Assembly: GCF_000372725.1 (NCBI RefSeq)
Contig: NW_005201165.1
Coordinates: forward strand, 126,853-190,852
Reading direction: 5' to 3'
Source of the DNA: Emiliania huxleyi CCMP1516
Taxonomy: Eukaryota
Length of the DNA: 64,000 nucleotides
The number at the start of each line of letters is the position of its first letter. Position 1 is the stretch's first letter. The notes below the pieces were generated by a model. The model did no database searches, was not told the DNA's origin, and was given only the letters and a program-made list of their open reading frames with translations. Of this stretch, positions 3,201 to 64,000 are shown in pieces. Made by a program: the position numbers and the translations under genes.

Positions 3201-3536
3201 GGAGAGCTAACTAAGAGGTAGGTAGCAGCCCCTTGGAGTGTGAAGGCTTCGTAGCCCTGCCGTCTACTATGAAGATCCGCAGGACTGGAGCGAAAAAAAG
3301 CAAGCGAGTGGGTAGGTAGGTGGCCGGAGCGCGGATCGATCGATCGAGGGGGAAATGGCAACTTTCAGGAGAGCTAACTAAGAGGTAGGTAGCAGCCCCT
3401 TGGAGTGTGAAGGCTTCGTAGCCCTGCGGTCTACTATGAAGATCCGCAGGACTGGAGCAAAAAAAAGCAAGCGAGTGGGTAGGTAGGTCCGGCCGGAGCG
3501 CGGATCGATCGATCGAGGGGGAAATGGCAACTTTCA
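3201..3536. repeat. Tandem duplication, two copies of ~167-169 bp
   Basis: GGAGAGCTAACTAAGAGGTAGGTAGCAGCC...GGAAATGGCAACTTTCA occurs at 3201-3367 and 3368-3536 with few differences. Confidence 0.95.
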
Positions 3537-12766: not shown

Positions 12767-14140
12767 CCCGGCGCAGCCGCACCGACCCCCACGGCCCGCC
12801 GCACGCGCGCAGGCGCGGCTCGCGCACCTTTCTCGAGGCTGGCACCGCCGTCGAGCACCGCGCTGCCACCGACAGCGCACCCGCGCGGCCGAGGCGCCCC
12901 TCGCCGGCGCGTGCGGCGAGACGGCGAGCGTGTCGGCGCGCCTTCCGGCCGCCGCACGGCGGACGGGCCGCCCGTCGAGCCGCGCGGCGCCGAGCGAGCC
13001 CAGCGGACGCCCTCACCGCTCCGTCGGCGGGTCGTCAGTCACGACGGCCGGCCTCTCCTCCCATCCGCACGCCGCGCCTGGCCGCGCGGCGAGGCGGCGC
13101 CGTGCGCCACGCGCTGTCGCTTTGCGCGGCGACAGTGCAGCGGCACATCAAGAGCCAGCATGACTCTCCATTGAACTTCTATGTGTCCCTGTCTCCGTCT
13201 GGTAGCCTCGTGACACAGCCTCAGCTGCTCTGCAGCGCACACACGTGCTGGAGGGTGAACAGCAGGCACAATTAGGCACGAGGAGACCAGAGATAGCGCG
13301 ATAGGGAGAGGGAGAGTAGGCATAGATGCCGCGAGCGGCCTGGGCTTTGGCGCCCGCCGCTGCGGACGATCACAGGGAGTGCATTCCCGTCGGAGCCTTT
13401 GATGTGCGCCGATGGGGCTGGACACCGCGATGCAGTGTTATGCGAGCGGAACTCGGTGAGAGGCAGCGATCGGTTACTCTCGCGCTTTTCTGTGTGAGAT
13501 ATGTGTGTGTGTACCGCGCACGTGGCCGTCAGCGTGTGTCACAAGTTTGTCTCTCGTGTCTGCGGTGACTCGGGGTGTCTGGGTCGTCTCACAAGCGCGA
13601 CGCGAGAAGGACGGGAAAAGCGTGAAAGACGATCCACGCCGCTCTCGCGCCACGCCACCCGACGTGTTCAGCGACACTGGCGAAGGTCTGTAGACCCAGC
13701 TCGTGAGACGCGTGCTGGGCAACACCAATGTACGCTCGAGACAATACGACGCACAAAGACGGATCCGAAGAGAGCGCACGCTCGGAGCACCATCCGCGCG
13801 TGGCGCACGGCGCCGCCTCGCCGCGCGCGGCCGGCCGGGCGGCGGCGTGCGGAGGAGAGGAGAGAGACTGACGACCCGCCGACGGAGCGGTGAGGGCGTC
13901 CGCTGGGCTCGCTCGGCGCCGCGCGGCTCGACGGGCGGCCCGTCCGCCGTGCGGCGGCCGGAAGGCGCGCCGACACGCTCGCCGTCTCGCCGCACGCGCC
14001 GGCGAGGGGCGCCTCGGCCGCGCGGGTGCGCTGTCGGTGGCAGCGCGGTGCTCGGCGGCGGTGCCAGCCTCGAGAAAGGAGCGGCGAGCCGCGCCTGCGC
14101 GCGTGCGGCGGGCCGTGGGGGTCGGTGCGGCTGCGCCGGG
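12767..14140. repeat. Long inverted repeat (arms ~12767-13114 and ~13796-14140, ~345 bp) around a ~680-bp spacer; foldback/MITE-like
   Basis: The arms are near-perfect reverse complements (the same peptide appears in ORFs 12677-13174 + and 13589-14452 -). A short outer match also exists: 12514-12539 vs ~14387-14412. Confidence 0.9.
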
Positions 14141-28706: not shown

Positions 28707-29008
28707 AAACTGGCAGCATAAATAAATAAATAAAACGGACACACCAAACAAGGGGTGGGAGAAGGACAGGGTCCCCACCTGCGCGAGCAGGATCTTGTAA
28801 GGACGATCAGGGACACAGGGGAAGGGGAGCGGGGAGCGCATCGTGACTCGGAGGGGGGCTGGGCAGGGTTGGTTCACCCACACGACAGGGTCCAAACTGG
28901 CAGCAAAAAGAAAGAAAGAAAGAAAATAGACAACCCGAGAGAGGGATGGGAGGACGGCACGCCGCCACCACACAGGGATTTTAAGGAGAGGTGTGTAAAC
29001 TGGCAGCA
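28707..29008 (-). mobile_element. Two tandem short retroposon 3'-end copies separated and flanked by three copies of AAACTGGCAGCA
   Basis: 12-mer at 28707-28718, 28894-28905 and 28997-29008. Insert A (28719-28893) has a (TTTA)n tail and insert B (28906-28996) a (TTTC)n tail. A matches the 6.6 kb and 44 kb copies; B matches the 44 kb copy. Confidence 0.8.
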
Positions 29009-43844: not shown

Positions 43845-43949
43845 GACGGCCGCGAGGTGGCATGAAGGTTGCAGCGAGAATCGGCGAGAGACTGCGAAAA
43901 GAGATAGGAAGGGGCAGACTCCCTAGGGTGGGCGACGGCTAGCGCATCA

Positions 43950-44205
43950 CACTCCTCTCCTTAAAATCCCTGTGTGGTGGCGGCGTGCCGTCCTCCCATC
44001 CCTCCCTTGGGTTGTCTGTTTTCTTTCTTTTACGATTCACGCGACAGGCGAGGCGCGGGCGACAGCTTCCTCGGAGAAGAAATTTGGTGTCTCTCTCGCT
44101 CTGTCGCTGATCGTCCTTACAAGATCCTGCTCGTGCAGGTGGGGACCTTGTCCTCCTCCCATCCCTCGTTTGGTTTGTCGCTGTTCTTTCTTTTCTTTCT
44201 TTCGC
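43950..44205 (+). mobile_element. Tandem pair of short retroposon 3'-end copies (type B then type A), each ending in a T-rich (TTTC)n tail
   Basis: CTCTCCTTAAAATCCCTGTGTGGTGGCGGCGTGCCGTCCTCCCATCCCTC is the reverse complement of ~28940-28990. CTGATCGTCCTTACAAGATCCTGCTCGTGCAGGTGGGGACC matches 6638-6680. Confidence 0.75.
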
Positions 44206-44884: not shown

Positions 44885-45361
44885 GAGATTTTTGAAAATC
44901 AACAAGAAATCACGACTCCCACAGTGATTTGGGCTCGGCAGCTTGTTAGCCCTCAGCCGAAGCTGGAAGCTGGGGCCGGTCCCGTAGCCGAGAGAGCCCG
45001 CGCCGTGAGTTCGACGCGGTCGGGAGGCTTGCGGAGAGGCCAGCGAGGTGGCGATCGCTGTACTTCATGGTGTCATCAAGTGACCGGCTGACAAGCCAGA
45101 GGTCGATACTCTGGACGACCCATAGGATGCCACGAATGCCTGAGGCTAGGCCTGAAGGAGAGGGAGGCGAGGCCAGAGGCAGACTCAGCTGCTCTCGGGT
45201 GATCTCGCTTTCATGGTGGCTGAATGAAGGAAGAAGTAGACGACGCGGGCTCTCTCGGCTACGGGACCGGCCCCAGCTTCGGCTGAGGGCTGACAAGCTG
45301 CCGAGCCCAAATCACTGTGGGAGTCGTGATTTCTTGTTGGTTTTCAATTGCTAAAAATCTC
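44885..45361. mobile_element. MITE-like element with ~120-bp terminal inverted repeats starting GAGATTTTT; extra TIR copies at ~44571-44661 and (diverged) ~52619-52684
   Basis: 44885-45005 and 45241-45361 are reverse complements (CAACAAGAAATCACGACTCCCACAGTGATTTGGGCTCGGCAGCTTGT...GGGGCCGGTCCCGTAGCCGAGAGAGCCCGCG). No clear TSD. Confidence 0.8.
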
Positions 45362-49388: not shown

Positions 49389-50908
49389 GTGAAGCGCACG
49401 CAAATCTCGTCATCGAGTCCGTTGAGCGCCACCTGCACCTCGAGCGCGAGCTCGCTCAGACTCGAGCAGTCTCCCGCGTGAGGCCGCGGGCGAGTCACGT
49501 TTGCGCGCGCCGCCTCCGCCGCCGCCTAGGGGCAGTGAGGCCAGCCAGATCAGGCGAGGGAGGGCTGAGGGGCGTGAGGCCAAAGGCATGGACTGCATGC
49601 CGAAGGCACGTGGGCGAGAGGGGGGCGAGAGGTGGGCGAGAGGGTGGGCGTGTGTGCGCGTGCGTGTGCGTGTGTGGCCTCGTCGATCTCCGACGCGATG
49701 AAGCGCCAGCCGAGCAGCGCACTGCCCAGCAGCGGATAGATGGCGGAGGCGCCTGGAGGTGCAGCCGAGGCGTAGCTGAGATGCAGTCGAGAAGAAACGG
49801 CACCGGAGGCAGACGCGAGATGCGTTCCCGCGATAAAGCCGAGATGCAGCGGCGGTGGATGGCAAGTTGTTAGATGCGACTCGAGATGTGATCTCGATGC
49901 GATTCGAGATGTGATCTCGGTGCGATTCGAGATGTGATCTCGGTGCGACTCGAGATGTGATCTCGATGCGATTCGAGATGTGATCTCGGTGCGAATCGAG
50001 ATGTGATCTCGATGCGATTCGAGATGTGATCTCGGTGCGATTCGAGATGTGGTGATCTCGGTGCGATTCGAGATGTGATCTCGGTGCGATCTCGAGCGGT
50101 GATCTCGATGGAGGCGCCTGTTCCGATGTCTAGCACGAGCGGAGGCGGAGGCGCTTGTTCGTCGGCCCGCGGGCTTGGGCGGAGGCGGAGGAGGTCTTCG
50201 AGCCTGCAGAGCACGCGGCGCGGTGTGGAAGGGTGTCTCGGGCTCAGCCCTCCCGTGCTCCAGGGAATGGTGTCGCCACAGTCTCTAGAGCGCTGGCAAG
50301 AGCACAGGGGTGGGTCTTTGGCGCACCAGAGCAGATAGTTGATGCGGGACGGGACGGGAGGGCAGAGGTGGCCGGCCGGCAAGCGCCAGCGGAGCCTAAG
50401 AGAGGGCGTGTGAAGACCGGCTGTGAAGACAGCACAGGCAAGATCACCCGACGACTGTGCGTCGGTGAGGCGTGACCCAAAAGCGGACCCATCCGCCCGA
50501 GCTCCCAACGTGTCTTCTCGCATTTACGCCGAGCGCCCAAAGTGCTGCCACAGCAGCGCCCGGGTGAGCGCGACGGCGGCGTCGGGCGCGCTCCAGTCGA
50601 GGCTGGCGCCGCCGCCGGGCCGACCGGGCCGCACGTGCCTCGCAAAGTCGGGGTCGAAGCGAGCTGATGCGGAGAGGGTGGGGCTGGGTGAGTGGCGGTG
50701 AGGAGAGGACGGCGGTGGTGGGCGGGCACAGAGGCGGTGTGGGAGGCGGCGGCGAGGTTGTGGCGGCGTGCGCGGAGAGGGCGGCGCGGAGAGTGAGAGG
50801 CACGAGGAGCGATCGAGTAATTGAAGAGAGCGCGTGAGGTCAACCGACTCACGCACCCAGCGCGGCAAAGTCCGGTGGCTGGTCCTTATACGGGTTGCGA
50901 GGGTGCAT
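48475..50908 (-). CDS. METTL16: METTL16/RlmF-family RNA m6A methyltransferase, multi-exon
   Basis: 'MHPRNPY...PDFAAL', 'LDWSAPDAAVALTRALL', 'LCPPVPSRINYL', 'LDIGTGAS', 'CMCNPPFY', 'GGEVGFV', 'WFSSLVG', 'SRWVLAWS'. Confidence 0.9.
49871..50108. repeat. Intronic minisatellite, ~10 copies of 23 bp (CGAGATGTGATCTCGRTGCGAHT)
   Basis: Read directly; each unit contains the inverted pair CGAGAT...ATCTCG. Confidence 0.95.
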
Positions 50909-54041: not shown

Positions 54042-54207
54042 AAAAAACTAGTATGTCTTCGAGTGAAAAGTAATCCGAGCAAACCCGCGGCCGCAGTGAA
54101 TTAAAATGGGCGGTTTTCGAGGGGGAATCTGGAGAATCTGGGAATCTGCTCACCACGGATCCCCACCTCATCGAAAAACTTTTCACTCCAAGACATACTA
54201 GTTTTTT
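54042..54207. repeat. 30-bp inverted repeat pair (1 mismatch) around a 106-bp spacer, AT-rich
   Basis: AAAAAACTAGTATGTCTTCGAGTGAAAAGT (54042-54071) vs ACTTTTCACTCCAAGACATACTAGTTTTTT (54178-54207). Confidence 0.9.
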
Positions 54208-54402: not shown

Positions 54403-55702
54403 ATGCCGGAGGACGACGAGGAGGCGGCTGCGCGTGAGCGTGCGCAGCGGTACATCAAATTTGGCACCGTCACCGAGAAGAATGTCGAGCAGCTACGCAA
54501 GCTGAACCTCGCAGTCTTCCCCGTCCGGTGAGCCGCCGCCTCCGCCGTGCGTGCCCGCACAGCAAGGCCTCTACGGGCGAGCCACTGGCGCATGCGCCAA
54601 CGCCACCTCACGCCAGCGTCGCGTGGCTCGTGAACGCTTCACAATCGCTGCGGTGGCGGTGCCAGGCGCTGCCGCCGAGCATGCCTTTCGCAGCGTCTCC
54701 CTCTCCCTCTCCCTGGTAGGTATAACGACAAGTTCTACTCGGACCTGGCTTCGGCGCCGTCACAGGCGTACACGCACCTCGCCTACTTCAACGACATCCT
54801 CGTCGGCGCCATCTGCTGCCGCATCGAGCCGCAGGAGCCCCGCCCCCGCTCCACCGGCCACTGTTTGCGGACCCCTGGCACCCGACCCTGGCCTCGACAC
54901 CGCTGTCCTCTGGCCCTCCAACCCGCCCGCCTGCCGCCACCGCGGAAGGCGCCGCGCCTTCCCGCCGGGTGGCGCTGGAGTCTGACGCGTGAGGCTCTGA
55001 TCACCGCAGGAGGGGGCCGCCTTTAAGCTCTACATCATGACGATCGGCGTGCTTGCGCCCTACCGCCGGCTGGGCATCGGCACGCAGCTGCTCAAGCAGG
55101 CGCCCCGCTCCGGCGAGGAGGCTCCTCTGCCCCAGCACCTCCCTCCCTCTCACCTCTGCTCGCTCGGGGCAGGTGCTGCACGCGTGCGCGCTCGAGCCCA
55201 ACCTGCAGGCGCCGCTGCCCGCCCTCCGCCAGGCTCCACCAGGCGAGATGCACCCGAGGTCGGGATGCGCCTCCCCCCCCCCTCCCCACCCCACCCCCGC
55301 AGGAGCTGTACCTGCACGTGCAGACCTCAAACAGCGACGCGATCGACTTTTACACGCGGCGAGCTGCCCACCCTCCCCGCCTGCCGGGCTTAAACCCGCC
55401 CCCTCCCTCTCGACAGCTCGCCGGCTGCGGACAGGTTCGGCTTCTCGCAGGGCGAGGTGATCAAGGACTACTACAAGCGGATCGAGCCGCCGGACGCGGT
55501 GGCCGAGCGACACGCACACGCACACACAGCCACGCGCGCGCGCGCGCACACACACACACGCCGTCACCACCACCACCGCGATCCCTCCCGCTCTCCCCTC
55601 GCAACGGCCCTTCACACCGCCGCGTGTGAGCAGGTGCTGCTGCACCGTGTCGCGCCCTTCCCAGTGCTCTCCAAGGAGGAGCAGCCCGCCCGGTACGCGT
55701 AG
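54403..55702 (+). CDS. NAA50: N-alpha-acetyltransferase 50 (NatE catalytic subunit), multi-exon
   Basis: 'NVEQLRKLNLAVFPV|RYNDKFY', 'LAYFNDILVGAICCRIE', 'LYIMTIGVLAPYRRLGIG', 'YLHVQTSNSDAIDFY', 'FGF...IKDYYKRIEPPDA'. Confidence 0.93.
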
Positions 55703-56789
55703 CTTGAGGAGGAACTGTGTGCTCTGCACTTGGAGCACTGCGATGCGTCTTTTATTTTCGGGCCTCGCTATTGTCGACCCCTTTTGCGCAGCAACACCTT
55801 AAACGACTTTTAGGCGGCGGCCCTCCAAATTCGGGTCGGAGCGTAGCCGTAGGGCGTAGGCCGTAGCGCTAGCGGAGTGTGTCGTGGGGATTGGAGTGGT
55901 CTGACCAGCAAGAAGACGGGTCGAGGCCCTCCGTAGGCTCGTGAGGCGTCCCTCGTCCCTCTTCAATAGAGGGATAGGCATCTGGACCCAAAGGTTGGTG
56001 CCCAGCAGGTGTGAGTGGTGAGCCGCGTGCGCGGCTCTGCTGTACTGGTGATCGCGGGTGAGGCTGCAAAGCCATCCTCGATCCGGGTGCCGTCTCAGAC
56101 GACTGTAGATTGGTATTAAGGTATAAGGAACTCGTATCCGAGTGGTTAAAGGGAATGGCGTGGTGTCACGCCGGGTTGTGTGTGTCACATGACACAAAGA
56201 GGTCGACTGTCTCGCGGCGCGGCGGCCCCACGAGAAGTAGTCAGAGACTATTACGTGCCAATATTTGGGCGCCTATTCGGCGCCCGACGGAGGTGCCAAT
56301 ATTAGGGATCTAGGTGGCGTGACGTGCCACTGCACAGGGTGTGGGAATATAGGGATATAGGTAGACTATTCATCACTGTGGGGGGGGAGAGTGTGATAAT
56401 AGGGGTGCTGGGGTGGGGCTGGTGGAGGTGATTCTCCGGGTCAGTCTGAAGGTCATTCTCCACCACCTCCTGCGACAGCTGGGTAGCCATTCCCCGGGGA
56501 GGGGATTGTCAGGGGCTGTGTCAGGGGCTGTCTGAGTCGGGGAGGGGGCCGTCAGAGGCTGTGTCAGGAGCTGTCTGAGCCGAACTTGTTTGTATGATAC
56601 CAACTGGCGTTGAGTTGAACCACCGGTATTATTCACACCCCGGAGGGCTGGTGTATCCATCTCGTGGCTTTCAGGGTTGTCCTGGTAGTTTGATAGGTTG
56701 AGCCTGGCAGCTTGGCAAGCGTGCCGCGTGCCTGGTAGTTTGATAGCTTGGTAGACTGGTAGTCTGATGGCTTGAGCCTGGTAGCTTGG

Positions 56790-57411
56790 ATGGTAGCTTG
56801 GATGGCGCTCTGATATGGATAACCCTGTCAGCACGGTGCCTGTAGCTTGCATGGTAGCTTGGATGGCGCTCTGATATGGATAACCCTGTCAGCACGGTGC
56901 CTGTAGCTTGCATGGTAGCTTGGATGGCGCTCTGATATGGATAACCCTGTCAGCACGGTGCCTGCAGCTTGCATGGTAGCTTGGATGGCGCTCTGATATG
57001 GATAACCCTGTCAGCACGGTGCCTGTAGCTTGCATGGTAGCTTGGATGGCGCTCTGATATGGATAACCCTGTCAGCACGGTGCCTGTAGCTTGCATGGTA
57101 GCTTGGATGGCGCTCTGATATGGATAACCCTGTCAGCACGGTGCCTGCAGCTTGCATGGTAGCTTGGATGGCGCTCTGATATGGATAACCCTGTCAGCAC
57201 GGTGCCTGTAGCTTGCATGGTAGCTTGGATGGCGCTCTGATATGGATAACCCTGTCAGCACGGTGCCTGTAGCTTGCATGGTAGCTTGGATGGCGCTCTG
57301 ATATGGATAACCCTGTCAGCACGGTGCCTGCAGCTTGCATGGTAGCTTGGATGGCGCTCTGATATGGATAACCCTGTCAGCACGGTGCCTGCAGCTTGCA
57401 TGGTAGCTTGG
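56790..57411. repeat. Tandem array, 10 x 61 bp, inside the LTR element
   Basis: Unit ATGGTAGCTTGGATGGCGCTCTGATATGGATAACCCTGTCAGCACGGTGCCTGYAGCTTGC with a single variable site. Confidence 0.97.
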
Positions 57412-57586
57412 TCTGCGTGCGACACGATGGCGACCGATCATCGTGAAGAGTCCCTGTGCGGCGTGATGATGACTAACCCACCACGACGGGTGCACTTTAA
57501 CGCCTTGCCCAGGGCGGCGCCGGCTTGGTAGTTCAAATGTTCCACCAAGCCAGAGCTCTGGTAGTGGGTTGAGGGCGGTAATCACG

Positions 57587-60500
57587 TTACAGCCGCTCGG
57601 GAAGAAGCGTGTTGAGGCAGAAGACGTGCGCGAGTCGATGAAGGAGCGCGTCGCGGCGGCGAGGTGGCGAGGTAGCAGCGGCAGCGGCTTCGGTCGTGGC
57701 GCCATCCGCTATCGGCGGCGAAGCGAGAGTAGAGATGGGATCCGAACCGGGCACCGTCTCGAGCGACACGGCCGAGAGATGCGGAGGCAGTGCGCTCGTG
57801 AAGCCAGCTACCGGCGAATCGGCAGGGGAGATACCGTCGAGCGCGTCAGGCGAGCAGTATGCGGCGGCGGCTCCGGCTGCGGCGTTATCCGCTACTATTG
57901 GCTGATTCGTTCTAGGACTGCCCCGCTTGTGGAGGCCCCAGGTCCTAGGAGTATGCCTTGATCGGCGACGTCGCTCGTATGGCTTGGTGTCATGGCACGC
58001 GCCTTCGGAGTCGATGTTGGGCGCGTCGTGCAGCCTTGCAGATGCAACAGTAACAGCCGCGTCCCCAGGCGACGCATGAAGGTCGCGTGCGACGACTGAG
58101 TCGAGGCCGGGCGGCGGCACGGCGGACGGCGGCGCGAGAGACGAAGCGGGCGAAGGCGGCGACGGCGGCGAGGAGGCCGTACGCGCCGAGGTAGATCCGA
58201 GAGCGGCGTCGCGCACGCCGTCGAGAGTAGCAGCGGCGACGGACACAGCCGCGTCAGTAGGCGACAAACAGATGTCGCGTGAGACGGCTGGTTCGAGGCC
58301 GGGCGGCGGCACGGCGGACGGCGGCGCGAGCGGAGGAGCAGGCGACGACGGCGGCGACGAGGTCGTACGCGCCGAGGTAGATCCGAGAGCGGCGTCGCGC
58401 ACGCCGTCGAGAGTAGCAGCGGCGACGGACACAGCCGCGTCAGTAGGCGACAAACAGATGTCGCGTGAGACGGCTGACTCGTCGGGCGGCGGCACGGCGG
58501 ACGGCGGCGCGAGCGGAGGAGCAGGCGACGACGGCGGCGACGAGGTCGTACGAGCCGAGGTAGATCCGAGGGCGGCGTCGTGCACGCCGTCGAGAGTAGC
58601 AGCGGCGACGGTGGCAGCCGCGTCAGTAGGCGACACACAAAGGTCGCGTGAGACGGCTGACTCGTCGGGCGGCGGCACGGCGGACGGCGGCGCGAGCGGA
58701 GGAGCAGGCGACGACGGCGGCGAGGAAGTCGTACGAGTCGAGGTAGATCCGAGGGCGGCGTCGTGCACGCCGTCGAGAGTAGCAGCGGCGACGGACACAG
58801 CCGCGTCAGTAGGCGACAAACAGATGTCGCGTGAGACGGCTGGTTCGACGGCGGGCGGCGGCACGGCGGATGGCGGCGCGAGCGGAGGAGCAGGCGACGA
58901 CGGCGGCGACGAGGTCGTACGCGCCGAGGTAGATCCGAGAGCGGCGTCGCGCACGCCGTCGAGAGTAGCAGCGGCGACGGACACAGCCGCGTCAGTAGGC
59001 GACAAACAGATGTCGCGTGAGACGGCTGGTTCGAGGCCGGGCGGCGGCACGGCGGATGGCGGCGCGAGCGGAGGAGCAGGCGACGACGGCGGCGACGAGG
59101 TCGTACGCGCCGAGGTAGATCCGAGAGCGGCGTCGCGCACGCCGTCGAGAGTAGCAGCGGCGACGGACACAGCCGCGTCAGTAGGCGACACACAAAGGTC
59201 GCGTGAGACGGCTGACTCGTCGGGCGGCGGCACGGCGGACGGCGCGAGCGGAGGAGCCGATGGCGGGGAGCTCGAGCGGGAGCCGAGCGGAGCGGAGGCA
59301 GCGTCCGGCGCGCCGAGCGACTTCGCACACCCGCTGTAGTACTGGTCCCAGCATCGGTCCCTGTACGCGACCTCGGCTCGTGTCTTGCCGCGCATCAGCC
59401 GTGTGGATGCGCGAGTGAAGACGCCGTACGTCGCGTCAAGAGCCCACGCCTCTCGGTCCTCGCGCACCTCGCGGCATCTGCGGAAACCCCAGCGCTGCCA
59501 GAGCGCGACGCTGCCCAGTTCTGCGGCGATCAAGACCCGCCCACCGTCGGCAATCGCCTTGAGTTCGGTCATCATCGCCTCGCCGATGCCCTGGCCCCGG
59601 AACTCGCGACGAGTCGCAAATGCCGGGCAGTAGAGGTAGTTGAGATGCCTATCAGAGCAGCTGACAAACCAGCATGCAGCGAGGAGTTCCCTCTGCTCGT
59701 TCAACGCGACGAGCATGCGGTAGCCGCGGCGGTACTTCAACACAGCACACAGCACAGTGGGCCACTCGTCGAAGCTCTCCTGCATAAGCTGCTCGACGTC
59801 ACGGACCAGACGTACTGGCGCCTCCTTGCCGAGGATCTCGAAGGTTAAGGAGATGCTCGCCTCCTTGCCAGCAGAGTCGGCGTTGAAGGTGCCGCCTGCC
59901 TTGCCAGCGGCTGCTGCCTCGGCCGCGACATCATCCGTAATCGGAGAGACGAGCGAGGCGTCGGGAGGCGTGCCGGATGCCGGACCGACAGGCGCCAAAA
60001 AATCCGAATCGCTCCCTGCCCTGCCCCCTGCCCTGCAGGCTCCATTCCCCGGCGAGGGGGAGGCGTACGTAGAGTTGACAGTAGCAGCGGTCTCAGCTGC
60101 GACACTAGCCCCAGAGGGCGGGTCGCGTGAGACGGCGGACTGGAAGCTGTGCGGCGGCTCGACTGACGGCTCGACAGTCAGCGAAGCAGGGGAGCTCGGT
60201 CGCGTAGGCGCTGGTGATCGAATGATGTCGAGATAGTTGCGTGCACCGGGCGCGCCTGACTGCGGTAGCGGCACTGGTGCTGGTGGCTGTCCTGCGGCGG
60301 CCAGCAGAGGCGATGGTGGAGGTGATACACCGAGGTTCTGGGCAGGTTCCCGCGCGCCCAAAGCCTCGTCGGGTGTTCGCCCAAGTTCTGTTGATTCGTA
60401 TCGTTGCTGCGTGATGCTCGCGTCCCGCTGCGAGTTCACTGCAATGGAATTGCTCGCTGCCACGGACAATCCAATCCCTTTCGGGTCTGTTGGGGCTTCC

Positions 60501-60841
60501 GTCGGAAAAGAGCTCGCCGGCAGCTCGGCAGAAAGCATCTCAGCTGGCATAGCCCCCTCCCCAACGGAGCCAGGCGGCGATGACTTGTCAAGTACATCGA
60601 TGCCGCCCTTGGGCTCGGTGTTGCCACCAAGCCTGCCCAACGTGGTGTCGTGGGGATTGGAGTGGTCTGACCAGCAAGAAGACGGGTCGAGGCCCTCCGT
60701 AGGCTCGTGAGGCGTCCCTCGTCCCTCTTCAATAGAGGGATAGGCATCTGGACCCAACGGTTGGTGCCCAGCAGGTGTGAGTGGTGAGCCGCGTGCGCGG
60801 CTCTGCTGTACTGGTGATCGCGGGTGAGGCTGCAAAGCCAT
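57587..60841 (-). CDS. LTR-element ORF (1084 aa): disordered N-terminus, GNAT acetyltransferase domain, ~6 tandem 61/62-aa Ser/Pro/Ala repeats
   Basis: ATG lies inside the right-hand LTR and the frame is uninterrupted. GNAT motif A 'FATRREFRGQGIGEAMM' and motif B 'SVALWQRWGF' at ~59630-59480. Confidence 0.8.
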   Translation of the reverse strand: MALQPHPRSPVQQSRARGSPLTPAGHQPLGPDAYPSIEEGRGTPHEPTEGLDPSSCWSDHSNPHDTTLGRLGGNTEPKGGIDVLDKSSPPGSVGEGAMPAEMLSAELPASSFPTEAPTDPKGIGLSVAASNSIAVNSQRDASITQQRYESTELGRTPDEALGAREPAQNLGVSPPPSPLLAAAGQPPAPVPLPQSGAPGARNYLDIIRSPAPTRPSSPASLTVEPSVEPPHSFQSAVSRDPPSGASVAAETAATVNSTYASPSPGNGACRAGGRAGSDSDFLAPVGPASGTPPDASLVSPITDDVAAEAAAAGKAGGTFNADSAGKEASISLTFEILGKEAPVRLVRDVEQLMQESFDEWPTVLCAVLKYRRGYRMLVALNEQRELLAACWFVSCSDRHLNYLYCPAFATRREFRGQGIGEAMMTELKAIADGGRVLIAAELGSVALWQRWGFRRCREVREDREAWALDATYGVFTRASTRLMRGKTRAEVAYRDRCWDQYYSGCAKSLGAPDAASAPLGSRSSSPPSAPPLAPSAVPPPDESAVSRDLCVSPTDAAVSVAAATLDGVRDAALGSTSARTTSSPPSSPAPPLAPPSAVPPPGLEPAVSRDICLSPTDAAVSVAAATLDGVRDAALGSTSARTTSSPPSSPAPPLAPPSAVPPPAVEPAVSRDICLSPTDAAVSVAAATLDGVHDAALGSTSTRTTSSPPSSPAPPLAPPSAVPPPDESAVSRDLCVSPTDAAATVAAATLDGVHDAALGSTSARTTSSPPSSPAPPLAPPSAVPPPDESAVSRDICLSPTDAAVSVAAATLDGVRDAALGSTSARTTSSPPSSPAPPLAPPSAVPPPGLEPAVSRDICLSPTDAAVSVAAATLDGVRDAALGSTSARTASSPPSPPSPASSLAPPSAVPPPGLDSVVARDLHASPGDAAVTVASARLHDAPNIDSEGACHDTKPYERRRRSRHTPRTWGLHKRGSPRTNQPIVADNAAAGAAAAYCSPDALDGISPADSPVAGFTSALPPHLSAVSLETVPGSDPISTLASPPIADGATTEAAAAATSPPRRRDALLHRLAHVFCLNTLLPERL

Positions 60842-61277
60842 CCTCGATCCGGGTGCCGTCTCAGACGACTGTAGATTGGTATAAGGTATAAGGAACTCGT
60901 ATCCGAGTGGTTAAAGGGAATGGCGTGGTGTCACGCCGGGTTGTGTGTGTCACATGACACAAAGAGGTCGACTGTCTCGCGGCGCGGCGGCCCCACGAGA
61001 AGCAGTCAGAGACTATTACGTGCCAATATTTGGGCGCCTATTCGGCGCCCGACGGAGGTGCCAATTAGGGATCTAGGTGGCGTGACGTGCCACTGCACAG
61101 GGTGTGGGAATATAGGGATATAGGTAGACTATTCATCACTGTGGGGGGGGAGAGTGTGATAATAGGGGTGCTGGGGTGGGGCTGGTGGAGGTGATTCTCC
61201 GGGTCAGTCTGAAGGTCATTCTCCACCACCTCCTGCGACAGTGTGGGCCCCGAGTTTGAAAAGGGCGACGGACACGC

Positions 61278-64000
61278 TTGCGTCCTAGCCTCCAACAACG
61301 CCTCCCCGGCGCAGAGGGGCCCCGGAGGGATGCTCAACCGCTCCACGCCACGCCGCTTGCGGCGGTCCTATTCCCAGCCAGCTCCGCAGAGCTGCTGCGT
61401 GAGTTTTGTCGCAGATTTGTGTCGCACACCCCTCTCGCCGTGTACACACGGCGTCCTGAGATGCTCCCTGCGCTGCGTGCCGCCTACGCCGCGCACATCA
61501 CGGACCTAGACGCGTCCTCGGCGGAGGATGCCAAGCCGGTGCCGATCTCGCACACGCTGCTCGGCGTCGCCGGCGGCCTGCGCTCCAGCATAGCGGCCAC
61601 AGGGTGGACCGAGGGGGACTTGCACTCCTCCGTGGTCCTGCTCTCGCGTCTGCCGCCGGGCGACGCCCTCTCCCGCCTCACGCTCCTCTCCTTCCTCGCG
61701 GTGCCTCAGTGGCGCGAGTTTGCCGCCCACTGCGCACGCAACTTGCAGGCGCAGCTGGGCCCCCTCTCAGACCGGCGCAAGGAGCTCCTCCTGGCGGCGT
61801 GGCTCTCGTTCGCCCTCGCCGTGCTGGCGGAGCCATCGCTGCGGGCCGCCGCCGACCTTCCCTTCCGGCACCTCGCAGAGGATGGCGAGGCCGTGCGCCG
61901 CACTCTCCCGTACGAGGCTTCGCAGACCGTCGCTCCGCTCGCGAGGCGACTCGTCTCTTCGATCAGCGCGCACGGGCCGCCCCGCTCCGGGGCGGCCTCG
62001 CCGCTGCCTCGCTCGGGCACCGCCTCGCCGCTGCCCGGCGCGGCGGCCAACGGCGCCGTCTCCCTCTCTGCCGCCGCCGCCGCCGCCAGCGACAGCGCCG
62101 CCCGCGGCGCGGCGCTGCCGTTACTGCCTCGGACCGAGGAGCTGCGATGGGGGGGCGCCGACCCTCCCCCGAACCGCACGGTCGGATCGTACGCGTCACG
62201 GGAGGAGTACATCCGCACCCACTTCTCGCTGCTGCGCGAGGACTTTGTGCGCCCGCTGCGCGACGCCATCGGCACCGTGCGGCGGGGCGAGGCGCTCCTG
62301 CGCGAGAGCGAGGCTGCACGAGGGCGTGAGGAAGCCTCTTCAACGTGCCTCGGTCTGAACAGGCTCCGCCGCGCGAGGTGAGGCTGCACAAGGGCGTGCG
62401 GATCGAGGGGACGCACATCGGAGAGCCGGGCGGTGTCCTCCACCGCCTCGTCCTCCCGACGGTCGGGCGCCGCCGCGGAGCCGGCGGCAAGCTTTCTAGT
62501 TTTGAGAGCGCGTTTGCACTCTCTTAGGCGGGCGCCGCCGAGGAGTCCGGCCTCATCAACGGCTCCCTCGTCGCTCTCTCGTCGGACGGGTGGGAGTCGT
62601 GCCGCTGCGCCGTCGTTGCCAAGCGCGGCGCTGCGCGGGGGCGCGGCGACCCAGCCGCGGAGAGTGACTCGAGTCACCGGGTCACCGACGTAGGCGCGAG
62701 GCTGCGCGGCAGCGGAACGACGGTTCGCTCTTCGTCGCATTCCAGCGCGACGGCGCCGGCGCCGACGCGAATTCGCTCGGCGCCGCGGTCGAGGACGCGG
62801 CGTACGCGTGTGAGCTCGCCGTCGCGTCTAACGCCGTCTACGAGATGCTCGAGCCTGGCGCCTACTGGGGCGCCTACCGGCCCGTGCTCGCCGCGCTGCA
62901 AGCGGCGGCGGCGGACACTTCGGGCGCTGCCTCCCGCCCGAGAAGCGCGCCTTGGCAACAAGAGGCGCCATCCACGCGGTGTGTGCTGTGAGCAGGCTTG
63001 CCCCTCGAGTCGGTGCTGCTGCGCGCCGAGGCGTGCGACGCGCCGCCAGACTTCGTCTCGCGCGGCGCGCGCAACTTCGACGTGCGGTGCGTGTTTCGCC
63101 CTCCGCTTCGTCCGGCAGGAGACCGCCAAAGATGGTGTGAACTTTACCGGGGCTGGTCTGCTCGTAGGCCGATCTTCAACGAGACGCCGCAGGAGGAGGG
63201 CATGCTCGTGGACGTGTGTTGTCCGTGGGAGCGAGCGAGCGGCGGCGGCGAGTTGGCCGGCACCTCCCTCGACGAGTTCCAGCTCCGCGCCACAAAGGCG
63301 CTGCTCTCGCACCGCTTCGGGCTCGTGCAAGGCCCTCCCGGCACCGGCAAGACTTTCGTCGGGCTGATGGTCGTCCGCACGCTGCTACGCAACGCGGCTC
63401 TATGGTCCGAAGAGGCCGCCGAGGCGCGCAGGGCTGCGCTGGCGGCGGCCGAGGCGGCGCCCGCGACAGCCGCGGCGTCTGCTTCGCCCGCGGCCCCGGC
63501 GGCGGCTTCAGACGGCAGCGTGAGCGCTGCGCGTGAGAGCGCGGCGCTGCAGGTCGTGGGAGCGCGTGAGGCGGTGGCGGATGGGTCGGTTGACTGACTG
63601 ATAATCCGGTTCATCACATGCAGGCGGTGGAGCGCATGAGGCGGCGCGCGGCGGCAGCGGCCGCGGCGGCGGGCGGCGGGGCGGACGCCGCTGCGGCGGC
63701 GGCGGCGGCGGATGAGGCCGCGGCGGGCGGTGGTGCGTCGCCGGCAGCCGCAAGCCGCAAGCGCGCCGTCGTCGACAGCGACGACGAGGAGGAGGAGAGT
63801 GGCGGTCGGGCGGCCAAGGCCGCGAGAAAGGAGCAGGACGGCGGCAGCTCCGGCCCCGCGGCCGGCGAGGGCGGCGGCGGCGCAGGCCCGCCGGCGCTTC
63901 ATCGGGTGGAGAGCCGGATGCTGTCTCGCGAGGAGGAGGTGGAGGCGACGCGAGAGACGCTGCTCTCGCCAAAGGTGTCTGGCGCGCGGCCGGACGGCGT
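61278..64000 (+). CDS. ZNFX1: ZNFX1/NFX1-type UPF1-like SF1 RNA helicase, 5' part (continues beyond the window), multi-exon
   Basis: 'GSYASREEYIRTHFSLLREDFVRPLRDAI', 'RLINGSLVALSSD', 'AYRPVLAALQ', 'LDEFQ...GLVQGPPGTGKTFVGLMVVRTLLRN'. Start codon uncertain. Confidence 0.8.

What the first reader, a model, noticed from the sequence alone, without database searches (positions are those of the whole stretch)
55880..61240. Young gag/pol-less LTR element whose only cargo is a GNAT (IDM1/GCN5-like) acetyltransferase ORF
Seen: ~99% identical TG...CA LTRs, a near-perfect 5-bp TSD, no gag, protease, RT or integrase motifs, and an intact 1084-codon ORF starting inside the LTR. It contains 'GYRMLVALNEQRELLAACWF...YLYCPAFATRREFRGQGIGEAMMTELK...VLIAAELGSVALWQRWGF'. 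Known: this P-x-x-AT-R..RGQG...W..xGF pattern resembles the histone-acetyltransferase domain of plant IDM1/ROS4-type anti-silencing proteins and GCN5-like GNATs, and TE-encoded anti-silencing factors exist (VANC proteins of VANDAL elements). Inference: a non-autonomous retroelement that maintains a chromatin-modifying enzyme, possibly to counter host silencing of itself or its autonomous partner.
Basis: partly seen in the sequence, partly recalled or inferred. Interest (0 to 1): 0.85.

Follow-up and report, generated by a model that had tools for sequence, protein, structure and literature searches.

The report
Algal retrotransposon carrying an acetyltransferase
A recently inserted, multi-copy mobile element in the marine alga Emiliania huxleyi has no genes for copying itself yet carries one predicted acetyltransferase gene that natural selection has likely preserved; it may help the element resist silencing, but its target is untested.

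Summary
The anatomy is confirmed: 598/595-bp TG..CA LTRs (99.2% identical), a 5-bp target duplication supported by empty sites in 4 of 4 runs, no gag/pol, and one 1084-codon ORF with a GNAT between Pro/Ser/Ala repeats. The host is Emiliania huxleyi (identical model EMIHUDRAFT_227996). It is a family: eight further copies or fragments at 51-88% identity, and a second CCMP1516 model runs GNAT, 61-bp array, LTR in the same order. Selection evidence is moderate and mixed: acetyl-CoA motif A is depleted of changes (P=0.017), 6 of 9 indels are in frame, and relatives at 43-47% keep the motifs. But 15 of 22 variants are non-synonymous and many copies are broken. The IDM1/GCN5 label is not supported: IDM1_C scores 11-17 bits (cutoff 33), like a bacterial GNAT; the fold ties GCN5 with generic GNATs; no reader domains. 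Transcription is not shown, and no autonomous partner was found. PBS and PPT are atypical, and the ORF may be antisense. Verdict: a real, apparently undescribed non-autonomous LTR family carrying a lineage-specific GNAT. Anti-silencing is a plausible, untested hypothesis.

The parts
55875..55879 (+). left target-site duplication copy (GAGTG)
   Evidence: empty-site joints in 4 of 4 runs
55880..56477 (.). LTR, 598 bp, TGTCG...CGACA
56122..56126 (+). only TATAA of the LTR on either strand (LTR position 243)
56151..56159 (+). 9-nt segment 29 nt after TATAA, complementary to 56486-56494; candidate self-primer
   Evidence: inconclusive
56480..56494 (+). candidate primer-binding site: TGG 2 nt after the LTR, then the 9-nt self-complementary stretch
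   Evidence: does not meet the published self-primer criterion
56495..56579 (.). 43-bp repeat x2, each with a G-rich purine run on the + strand
56776..57411 (.). 61-bp tandem array, 10.4 copies, 98% matches; also present in the second CCMP1516 copy
57587..60841 (-). 1084-codon ORF starting inside the right LTR
   Evidence: gene model EMIHUDRAFT_227996 is identical in three blocks of 407, 21 and 72 aa
58082..59257 (-). 186-bp x6.4 array coding 61-64-aa Pro/Ser/Ala-rich repeats; all unit lengths are multiples of 3
59327..59866 (-). GNAT domain (aa 326-505; Pfam core aa about 353-454 = 59480-59785), motif A intact
59867..60841 (-). low-complexity N-terminal region (48% P/S/A/T) with degenerate units of the same repeat
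60646..61240 (.). LTR, 595 bp; holds the ORF start codon
61241..61245 (+). right target-site duplication copy (GTGTG, one mismatch)
61243..61378 (.). right part of the very high-copy host repeat that was the insertion target (left part about 55776-55879)
   Evidence: tables 2, 5, 7

Best explanation
This is a young copy of a multi-copy, gag/pol-less LTR element family of Emiliania huxleyi whose single ORF holds a GNAT domain between long Pro/Ser/Ala repeats; the element is likely mobilised in trans as a retrotransposon, and the GNAT is likely an accessory acetyl-CoA-dependent protein-lysine acetyltransferase kept by selection in the element lineage, predicted to act on chromatin to keep the family transcribable. 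Shown: anatomy, youth, multi-copy family, GNAT fold, intact motif A. Inferred: mobilisation by an autonomous Copia or Gypsy partner not yet found; origin as an extra ORF of an autonomous parent that lost gag-pol; selection in transposing lineages with decay of individual copies after insertion. Guess: the substrate is a nuclear protein such as a histone.
For: LTRs 99.2% identical, target duplication and empty site. Family: P0003-P0008 at 76-88% over aligned GNAT, P0012 and P0014 at 74% and 64%, an Atlas cluster of 55 eukaryote members, commonest Haptophyta (probably its own cluster). P0006 on another CCMP1516 scaffold runs GNAT, 61-bp-array peptide, LTR peptide with 23 of 23 identical. Summed contig depth over the GNAT is 4-19 times the flanks in the three non-RNA runs (not a copy number). 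Selection: 2 of 17 motif-A columns vary against 50 of 136 overall, P=0.017; 8 of 65 unique substitutions fall in the two core blocks, P=0.0015, blocks chosen after seeing the alignment; 6 of 9 indels read keep the frame, P=0.042; P0009-P0011 at 43-47% identity and about 1.2 changes per site keep the motif-A and LWQRWG blocks where covered; GC3 0.79 against GC2 0.48 in the GNAT. Weak lean to protein-lysine enzymes: among tied top folds the longest alignments are yeast GCN5 (Z 11.1, rmsd 2.9, 137 aligned) and SAGA HAT module (Z 10.7, rmsd 4.7, 162) against about 100-130 for most others. One basic cluster at aa 957-960. Retrotransposons are known to capture epigenetic enzymes.
Against: Of the 22 variant rows that lie in the ORF (of 40 shown, 360 not shown), 15 are non-synonymous and 7 synonymous, within the neutral 24-34% range; the 8 GNAT rows, all C-terminal of the core, are 6 to 2. 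Substitutions are no more conservative than a neutral simulation (mean BLOSUM -0.43 against -0.50 to -0.69, sd 0.3), and a run-clustering test gave P=0.33. By eye, P0004, P0007, P0008, P0010, P0011, P0012 and P0014 are frame-shifted, cut or rearranged. The genomic context of P0009-P0011 is unknown; they may be host genes. No support for IDM1 or GCN5 by sequence. The fold match is tied with aminoglycoside, HPA2 and N-terminal acetyltransferases, on a model of mean pLDDT 58. No reader domain. The residue at the position of the GCN5/IDM1 general-base Glu (position recalled, not from a call) appears to be Tyr404. The one RNA run laid has the same depth ratios as DNA runs, so it shows no transcription. 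No PPT, no clean PBS, no partner found.
Confidence: 0.4

Rival explanations
1. The GNAT is a selected accessory enzyme of the element family, but its substrate is not chromatin: the element's or partner's own proteins, a host defence protein, a protein N-terminus, an RNA or tRNA, or a small amine.
For: Best hits outside the family are generic bacterial, archaeal or viral GNATs; no reader domain; IDM1_C score non-specific; Atlas leads include giant-virus N-acetyltransferases at 0.90-0.91 with only 116 shared features.
Against: GCN5 gives the longest of the tied structural alignments; known enzyme captures by retrotransposons are chromatin or DNA modifiers.
Confidence: 0.25
2. Passive cargo: a GNAT captured from a host or viral gene, or a leftover extra ORF of the autonomous parent, hitch-hikes in the non-autonomous family and is now decaying; motif conservation records past selection elsewhere.
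For: 15 of 22 shown variants non-synonymous; neutral-like substitution quality; many broken copies; no proof of transcription; a joint 59075 to 59901 in run X6 could be a GNAT-less variant (may also be repeat reshuffling).
Against: Motif-A depletion among close copies; shared indels mostly in frame; a 1084-codon frame stays open across six repeat units of three lengths; no near-identical donor among the hits.
Confidence: 0.27
3. Not a retroelement: two copies of a 595-bp repeat with short inverted ends flank a gene and move as a composite DNA unit, or the unit is a segmental duplication.
For: No PPT in either orientation and no canonical PBS; no retroelement protein.
Against: Direct TG..CA repeats, one 5-bp duplication around the whole unit and none around either repeat alone; empty site present; TGG 2 nt after the left LTR; same part order in a second copy.
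Confidence: 0.08

Closest known systems
Non-autonomous LTR retrotransposons (LARD over 4 kb, TRIM under 4 kb; both reported in the haptophyte Tisochrysis lutea, PMC5963040, passages)
   Same: LTRs, 5-bp duplication, no gag/pol, 5.4 kb, internal tandem arrays
   Different: These are defined as non-coding; this one keeps a 1084-codon ORF with an enzyme domain.
Extra ORFs (eORFs) of plant LTR retrotransposons, such as reverse 3' ORFs and tandem arrays in Tat/Retand/Ogre (PMC6317226, passages)
   Same: Accessory ORF unrelated to the polyprotein, next to tandem arrays; possibly antisense from the 3' LTR
   Different: There the eORF sits beside an intact gag-pol; the prominent domains named are plant mobile domain, Transposase_28 and Athila ORF-1. 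No GNAT term was found in the 5 supplement files held, which are small and may lack the domain table.
Retrotransposons with captured epigenetic modules: DNMTs (PMC5890265, listing only), DAM-LTRs (10.64898/2026.05.21.726589, passages), MBD-Copia (PMC6673714, listing only), Chromo/PHD/SET/SNF2 fusions (10.1101/2021.11.30.470311, section 10)
   Same: An enzyme or reader domain carried by a retroelement family, proposed to deal with host chromatin
   Different: Those sit in autonomous elements and are methyltransferases, remodellers or readers; no acetyltransferase is named in the passages read, and bromodomain fusions are reported as rare and unvalidated.
VANC anti-silencing proteins of VANDAL DNA transposons (PMC10398659, listing and abstract start)
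   Same: Element-encoded factor proposed to counter silencing
   Different: Sequence-specific DNA-binding proteins of DNA transposons; no DNA-binding domain or anti-silencing effect is shown here.
IDM1/ROS4 (PMC4899616, passages) and GCN5 histone acetyltransferases
   Same: GNAT fold; a Pro-x-x-x-Thr-Arg run before motif A and Trp in place of the usual aromatic before Gly-Phe resemble IDM1 (resemblance recalled)
   Different: IDM1_C score far below cutoff and non-specific; no PHD, MBD or bromodomain; no sequence hit to GCN5 structures.
Self-priming LTR elements Tf1/Sushi, Tcn1, TAR (PMC6317226, PMC4600332, passages)
   Same: A stretch just inside one LTR is complementary to a segment 29 nt after a TATAA in the LTR
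   Different: 9 bp starting 8 nt from the LTR, short of the published rule of 10 bp or more at 0-5 nt.

Membership tests
Non-autonomous LTR retrotransposon | Direct LTRs with TG..CA ends | tested here: met
Non-autonomous LTR retrotransposon | 4-6 bp target-site duplication and an empty site | tested here: met
   4 of 5 match; empty-site joints in 4 of 4 runs
Non-autonomous LTR retrotransposon | No gag, protease, RT, RNase H, integrase | tested here: met
   (26 frames scanned)
Non-autonomous LTR retrotransposon | Primer-binding site next to the 5' LTR | tested here: inconclusive
   TGG at +2 on the + strand, at +6 on the - strand; host tRNA set not available
Non-autonomous LTR retrotransposon | Polypurine tract next to the 3' LTR | tested here: not met
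   purine share of the last 15 nt 0.53 and 0.47; no run of 7 or more purines within about 120 nt
Non-autonomous LTR retrotransposon | Multiple dispersed copies | tested here: met
Non-autonomous LTR retrotransposon | Autonomous partner with the same LTR ends | not testable with these tools
   no genome held; LTR pattern scans gave 20 loci, all chance matches
LARD (strict) | Non-coding internal region | tested here: not met
   1084-codon ORF with a GNAT
Self-priming (Tf1/Sushi-type) | 10 bp or more of LTR complement starting 0-5 nt after the 5' LTR | tested here: not met
   9 bp at +8; helix forms only in a short transcript model, not in a longer one
GNAT superfamily | Pfam match above cutoff, motif A, GNAT fold | tested here: met
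IDM1/ROS4 | IDM1_C (PF23209) above cutoff 33 | tested here: not met
   no hit for the window protein; 11.6-16.9 bits in 5 of 13 relatives scanned, 15.2 in the bacterial-type P0015
IDM1/ROS4 | Chromatin reader domains beside the catalytic domain (PHD, MBD; recalled) | tested here: not met
   none in the 1084-aa protein
GCN5/PCAF | Sequence relationship to GCN5 HAT domains; bromodomain | tested here: not met
   no GCN5 chain at E up to 10 in three PDB sequence searches; no bromodomain
GCN5/PCAF | GCN5-type fold | tested here: inconclusive
   1ygh Z 11.1, rmsd 2.9, 137 aligned, tied with many GNATs
Histone acetyltransferase (any) | Acetylates histone lysines | not testable with these tools
   needs an assay
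VANC-type anti-silencing factor | Binds its own element and removes silencing | not testable with these tools
   needs ChIP and methylation data

The most novel reading that the evidence does not exclude
The first retrotransposon-borne histone acetyltransferase: a non-autonomous LTR family that has shed gag-pol but keeps a writer of an activating chromatin mark, expressed from its LTR, which de-silences itself and its helper element in return for mobilisation.
Probability: 0.2. Interest if true: 0.87.

Novelty: new variant of a known kind. Interest (0 to 1): 0.58.

Why it matters
Enzymes captured by retrotransposons in the papers seen here are DNA methyltransferases, SET or SNF2 domains, or readers, fused to or beside pol. 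An acetyltransferase as the only gene of a non-autonomous family would be missed by domain-fusion screens, because no transposon domain is in the protein. If active on chromatin it would show that elements can write an activating mark and that non-autonomous elements can be co-operators rather than pure parasites, in a globally important bloom alga. Even otherwise, it shows that some annotated E. huxleyi 'N-acetyltransferase' genes (EMIHUDRAFT_227996, _230844) are transposon cargo.

Tried and rejected
No whole genome is held, so copy number, solo LTRs, tRNA matches and the partner could not be examined. LTR-end patterns in viral contigs (3 and 8 loci) and metagenome contigs (9 loci) matched only the 17-21-nt pattern. 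GNAT scans of viral contigs found no relative; the alignment query was not usable; GTDB gave 1 of 87 stretches, a 20-aa motif-A match only. A search among proteins of 596-1897 aa found 0 of 753 candidates, and the exact 1084-aa protein is not in the collection. Rfam: 0 matches at E up to 5. ARAGORN: 0 tRNAs in the window. Local capture from the adjacent host GNAT gene is rejected: best exon 6 of 24 identical, 30 of 300 shuffles as good, no blastn hit under E 0.3. RNA run X10 is rejected as evidence of transcription: GNAT/flank 16.8 and GNAT/host-repeat 0.0058 lie within the DNA-run ranges 4.2-18.9 and 0.0046-0.0104. A focused variant table for the GNAT was not obtained, so no dN/dS could be computed. 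The first fold (pLDDT 49) was superseded. The tree of 12 GNAT cores is mostly unresolved (1 of 9 branches starred). Earlier scan notes: 4 look-ups, nothing returned. The 'gnat' hit in PMC2774666 is 'Gnathostome'.
Full report
Observation. Two direct repeats lie at 55880-56477 and 60646-61240. Both begin TGTCG and end CGACA and differ at 2 bases and 3 gap columns of 598. The flanking 5-mers are GAGTG and GTGTG. Contigs in all four runs laid (X10, X4, X6, X7) join 55845-55847 to 61243, which is the empty form of a very high-copy host repeat (summed depth about 870-2900 times the flanks). This fits a 5-bp duplication with one later change or sequencing error. Inside are a 43-bp doublet, a 61-bp array of 10.4 units and one minus-strand ORF of 1084 codons that starts at position 400 of the right LTR. 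The ORF is a low-complexity N-terminal region, a GNAT (PF13508, PF00583 above cutoff), six 61-64-aa Pro/Ser/Ala repeats and a short tail. No retroelement protein family was found in it or in 25 other frames.

Host and family. The GNAT is 100% identical to EMIHUDRAFT_227996 of Emiliania huxleyi CCMP1516, a model that splices out the repeats. No shown joint supports that splicing. Word-based searches returned 2 of 1086 and 5 of 151 candidates; the exhaustive HMMER search returned 12 proteins of 1.84 billion. Together: eight further copies or fragments (P0003-P0008, P0012, P0014), three distant relatives at 43-47% (P0009-P0011) and two bacterial-type GNATs at E 7e-6 and 3e-4. P0006 (EMIHUDRAFT_230844, another scaffold) runs from the GNAT into a translation of the 61-bp array and then of the LTR, so a second genomic copy has the same part order. 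P0003 carries the same 62-aa repeat. The Atlas's nearest unnamed cluster has 55 eukaryote members, commonest Haptophyta on one record, and is probably the family itself. The GNAT is therefore a standing part of the family, not a one-off capture. It does not come from the neighbouring host GNAT gene.

Is it under selection? For: motif A has 2 variable columns of 17 against 50 of 136 overall (P=0.017). The two core blocks hold 8 of 65 unique substitutions (P=0.0015, blocks chosen after inspection). Six of nine indels that could be read keep the frame (P=0.042), including a net 171-base deletion in 4 of 4 runs. The repeat units come in three lengths, all multiples of three. Relatives about 1.2 changes per site away keep the motifs. 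Against: 15 of the 22 shown variants in the ORF are non-synonymous, as neutrality predicts (360 rows unseen; none of the shown rows lies in the core). Substitution quality is neutral-like, a clustering test gave P=0.33, and 7 of the 11 relatives look broken or cut (by eye). Decay of inserted copies is expected even when transposing lineages are under selection (inference), so I put selection within the element lineage at about 0.65. No dN/dS could be computed.

What kind of GNAT? The fold is GNAT. It is not IDM1 by the Pfam test: no hit for the window protein, 11.6-16.9 bits in 5 of 13 relatives against a cutoff of 33, and 15.2 bits for a bacterial-type control. Three PDB sequence searches showed no GCN5 chain at E up to 10. 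In the structural search GCN5 is tied at the top with aminoglycoside, HPA2 and N-terminal acetyltransferases, but gives a longer alignment (137 residues; SAGA module 162), partly over low-confidence residues. There are no reader domains. From recall, not from a call, the GCN5/IDM1 general-base glutamate maps to Tyr404 here. It is best treated as its own small subfamily; histones are one candidate substrate.

Orientation and priming. No polypurine tract adjoins an LTR in either direction. On the + strand a TGG stands 2 nt after the left LTR, and 9 nt at 56486-56494 complement an LTR segment 29 nt after the only TATAA. Random 25-mers gave such a match anywhere in the LTR in 5.8% of trials and within that zone in 0.2% (the zone was chosen after seeing the match). 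The helix forms in a transcript model ending at 56500 but not in longer ones, and it misses the published self-primer rule (PMC6317226). If the element is + oriented, the GNAT ORF is an antisense extra ORF starting in the 3' LTR, left after loss of gag-pol. If it is - oriented, the ORF replaces gag-pol. This is unresolved; I lean to + at about 0.55.

Expression. RNA run X10 has contigs over the GNAT, but its depth ratios match the DNA runs, so carried-over DNA explains them. Transcription is not shown.

Mechanism. Most likely a partner's Gag-Pol packages and integrates the element's RNA (inferred from LTRs, duplication and youth). The ORF is read from an LTR promoter and yields a largely disordered protein with an acetyl-CoA-using domain (inferred). 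That domain acetylates a nuclear protein and eases silencing of the family (guess). Whole-chain confidence 0.4; rivals are a non-chromatin substrate (0.25), hitch-hiking (0.27) and a non-retro unit (0.08).

Known systems and novelty. Retrotransposons with DNA methyltransferases, MBD, Chromo, PHD, SET and SNF2 domains are described (PMC5890265 and PMC6673714, search listing only; 10.64898/2026.05.21.726589, passages; 10.1101/2021.11.30.470311, passages and section 10). VANC (PMC10398659) was seen as listing and abstract start; IDM1 (PMC4899616), Tj1 (PMC4600332), plant eORFs (PMC6317226) and T. lutea elements (PMC5963040) as passages. Seven searches showed no title or abstract start describing an acetyltransferase carried by an LTR element, or this family. 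The library lacks most subscription journals and Repbase. Supplementary Table 6 of the chromatin preprint and the eORF domain table of PMC6317226 were not seen and could list such cases. I rate it a new variant of a known kind.

Verdict. Real element, real multi-copy GNAT cargo, moderate evidence of selection, family label and function unproven. Interest 0.58.

Noticed in passing
window 54404-55705 (+): Multi-exon host gene for another GNAT (PF00583 on one exon; reads like NAA50/San, label recalled) ends about 175 bp from the LTR; unrelated to the cargo beyond motif A.
   Followed up: partly
window about 61450-63400 (+): Host gene for a superfamily-1 helicase (AAA_11 E=7e-6); looks ZNFX1-like (recalled), a family tied to RNA silencing.
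   Followed up: partly
window about 55776-55879 and 61243-61378: The insertion target is an unidentified repeat of roughly 240 bp with summed depth 870-2900 times single-copy flanks; no Rfam match. Whether the family prefers this target is open.
   Followed up: partly
window 56496-56520 and 56539-56560 (+): Each 43-bp unit has a G-rich purine run; the first is followed by TGTCAGGGG, resembling a PPT plus LTR start, directly after the candidate primer site. Unexplained.
   Followed up: no
window 59075/59901, 59929/58133, 59968/58538: Joints in X6 and X7 suggest family variants with reshuffled repeats or without the GNAT.
   Followed up: no
window 12823-14083: 218-nt inverted repeats, 99% complementary, 825 nt apart: a young MITE or Pack-type element.
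   Followed up: no
window 28724-28996 and 43949-44193; 44892-45347; 54042-54207: A dispersed repeat in two inverted copies, and two small elements with 75-nt and 37-nt inverted ends.
   Followed up: no
window 3201-3536; 49875-50107: A 167-bp tandem duplication at 97%, and a 23-bp x10 array.
   Followed up: no
P0006 residues 1-65: N-terminal part not found in the window element and without Pfam match; may be flanking DNA joined by the gene model.
   Followed up: no
window 59327-59866: Atlas leads to two giant-virus N-acetyltransferase clusters (0.91, 0.90; 116 shared features): a possible viral source, lead only.
   Followed up: partly
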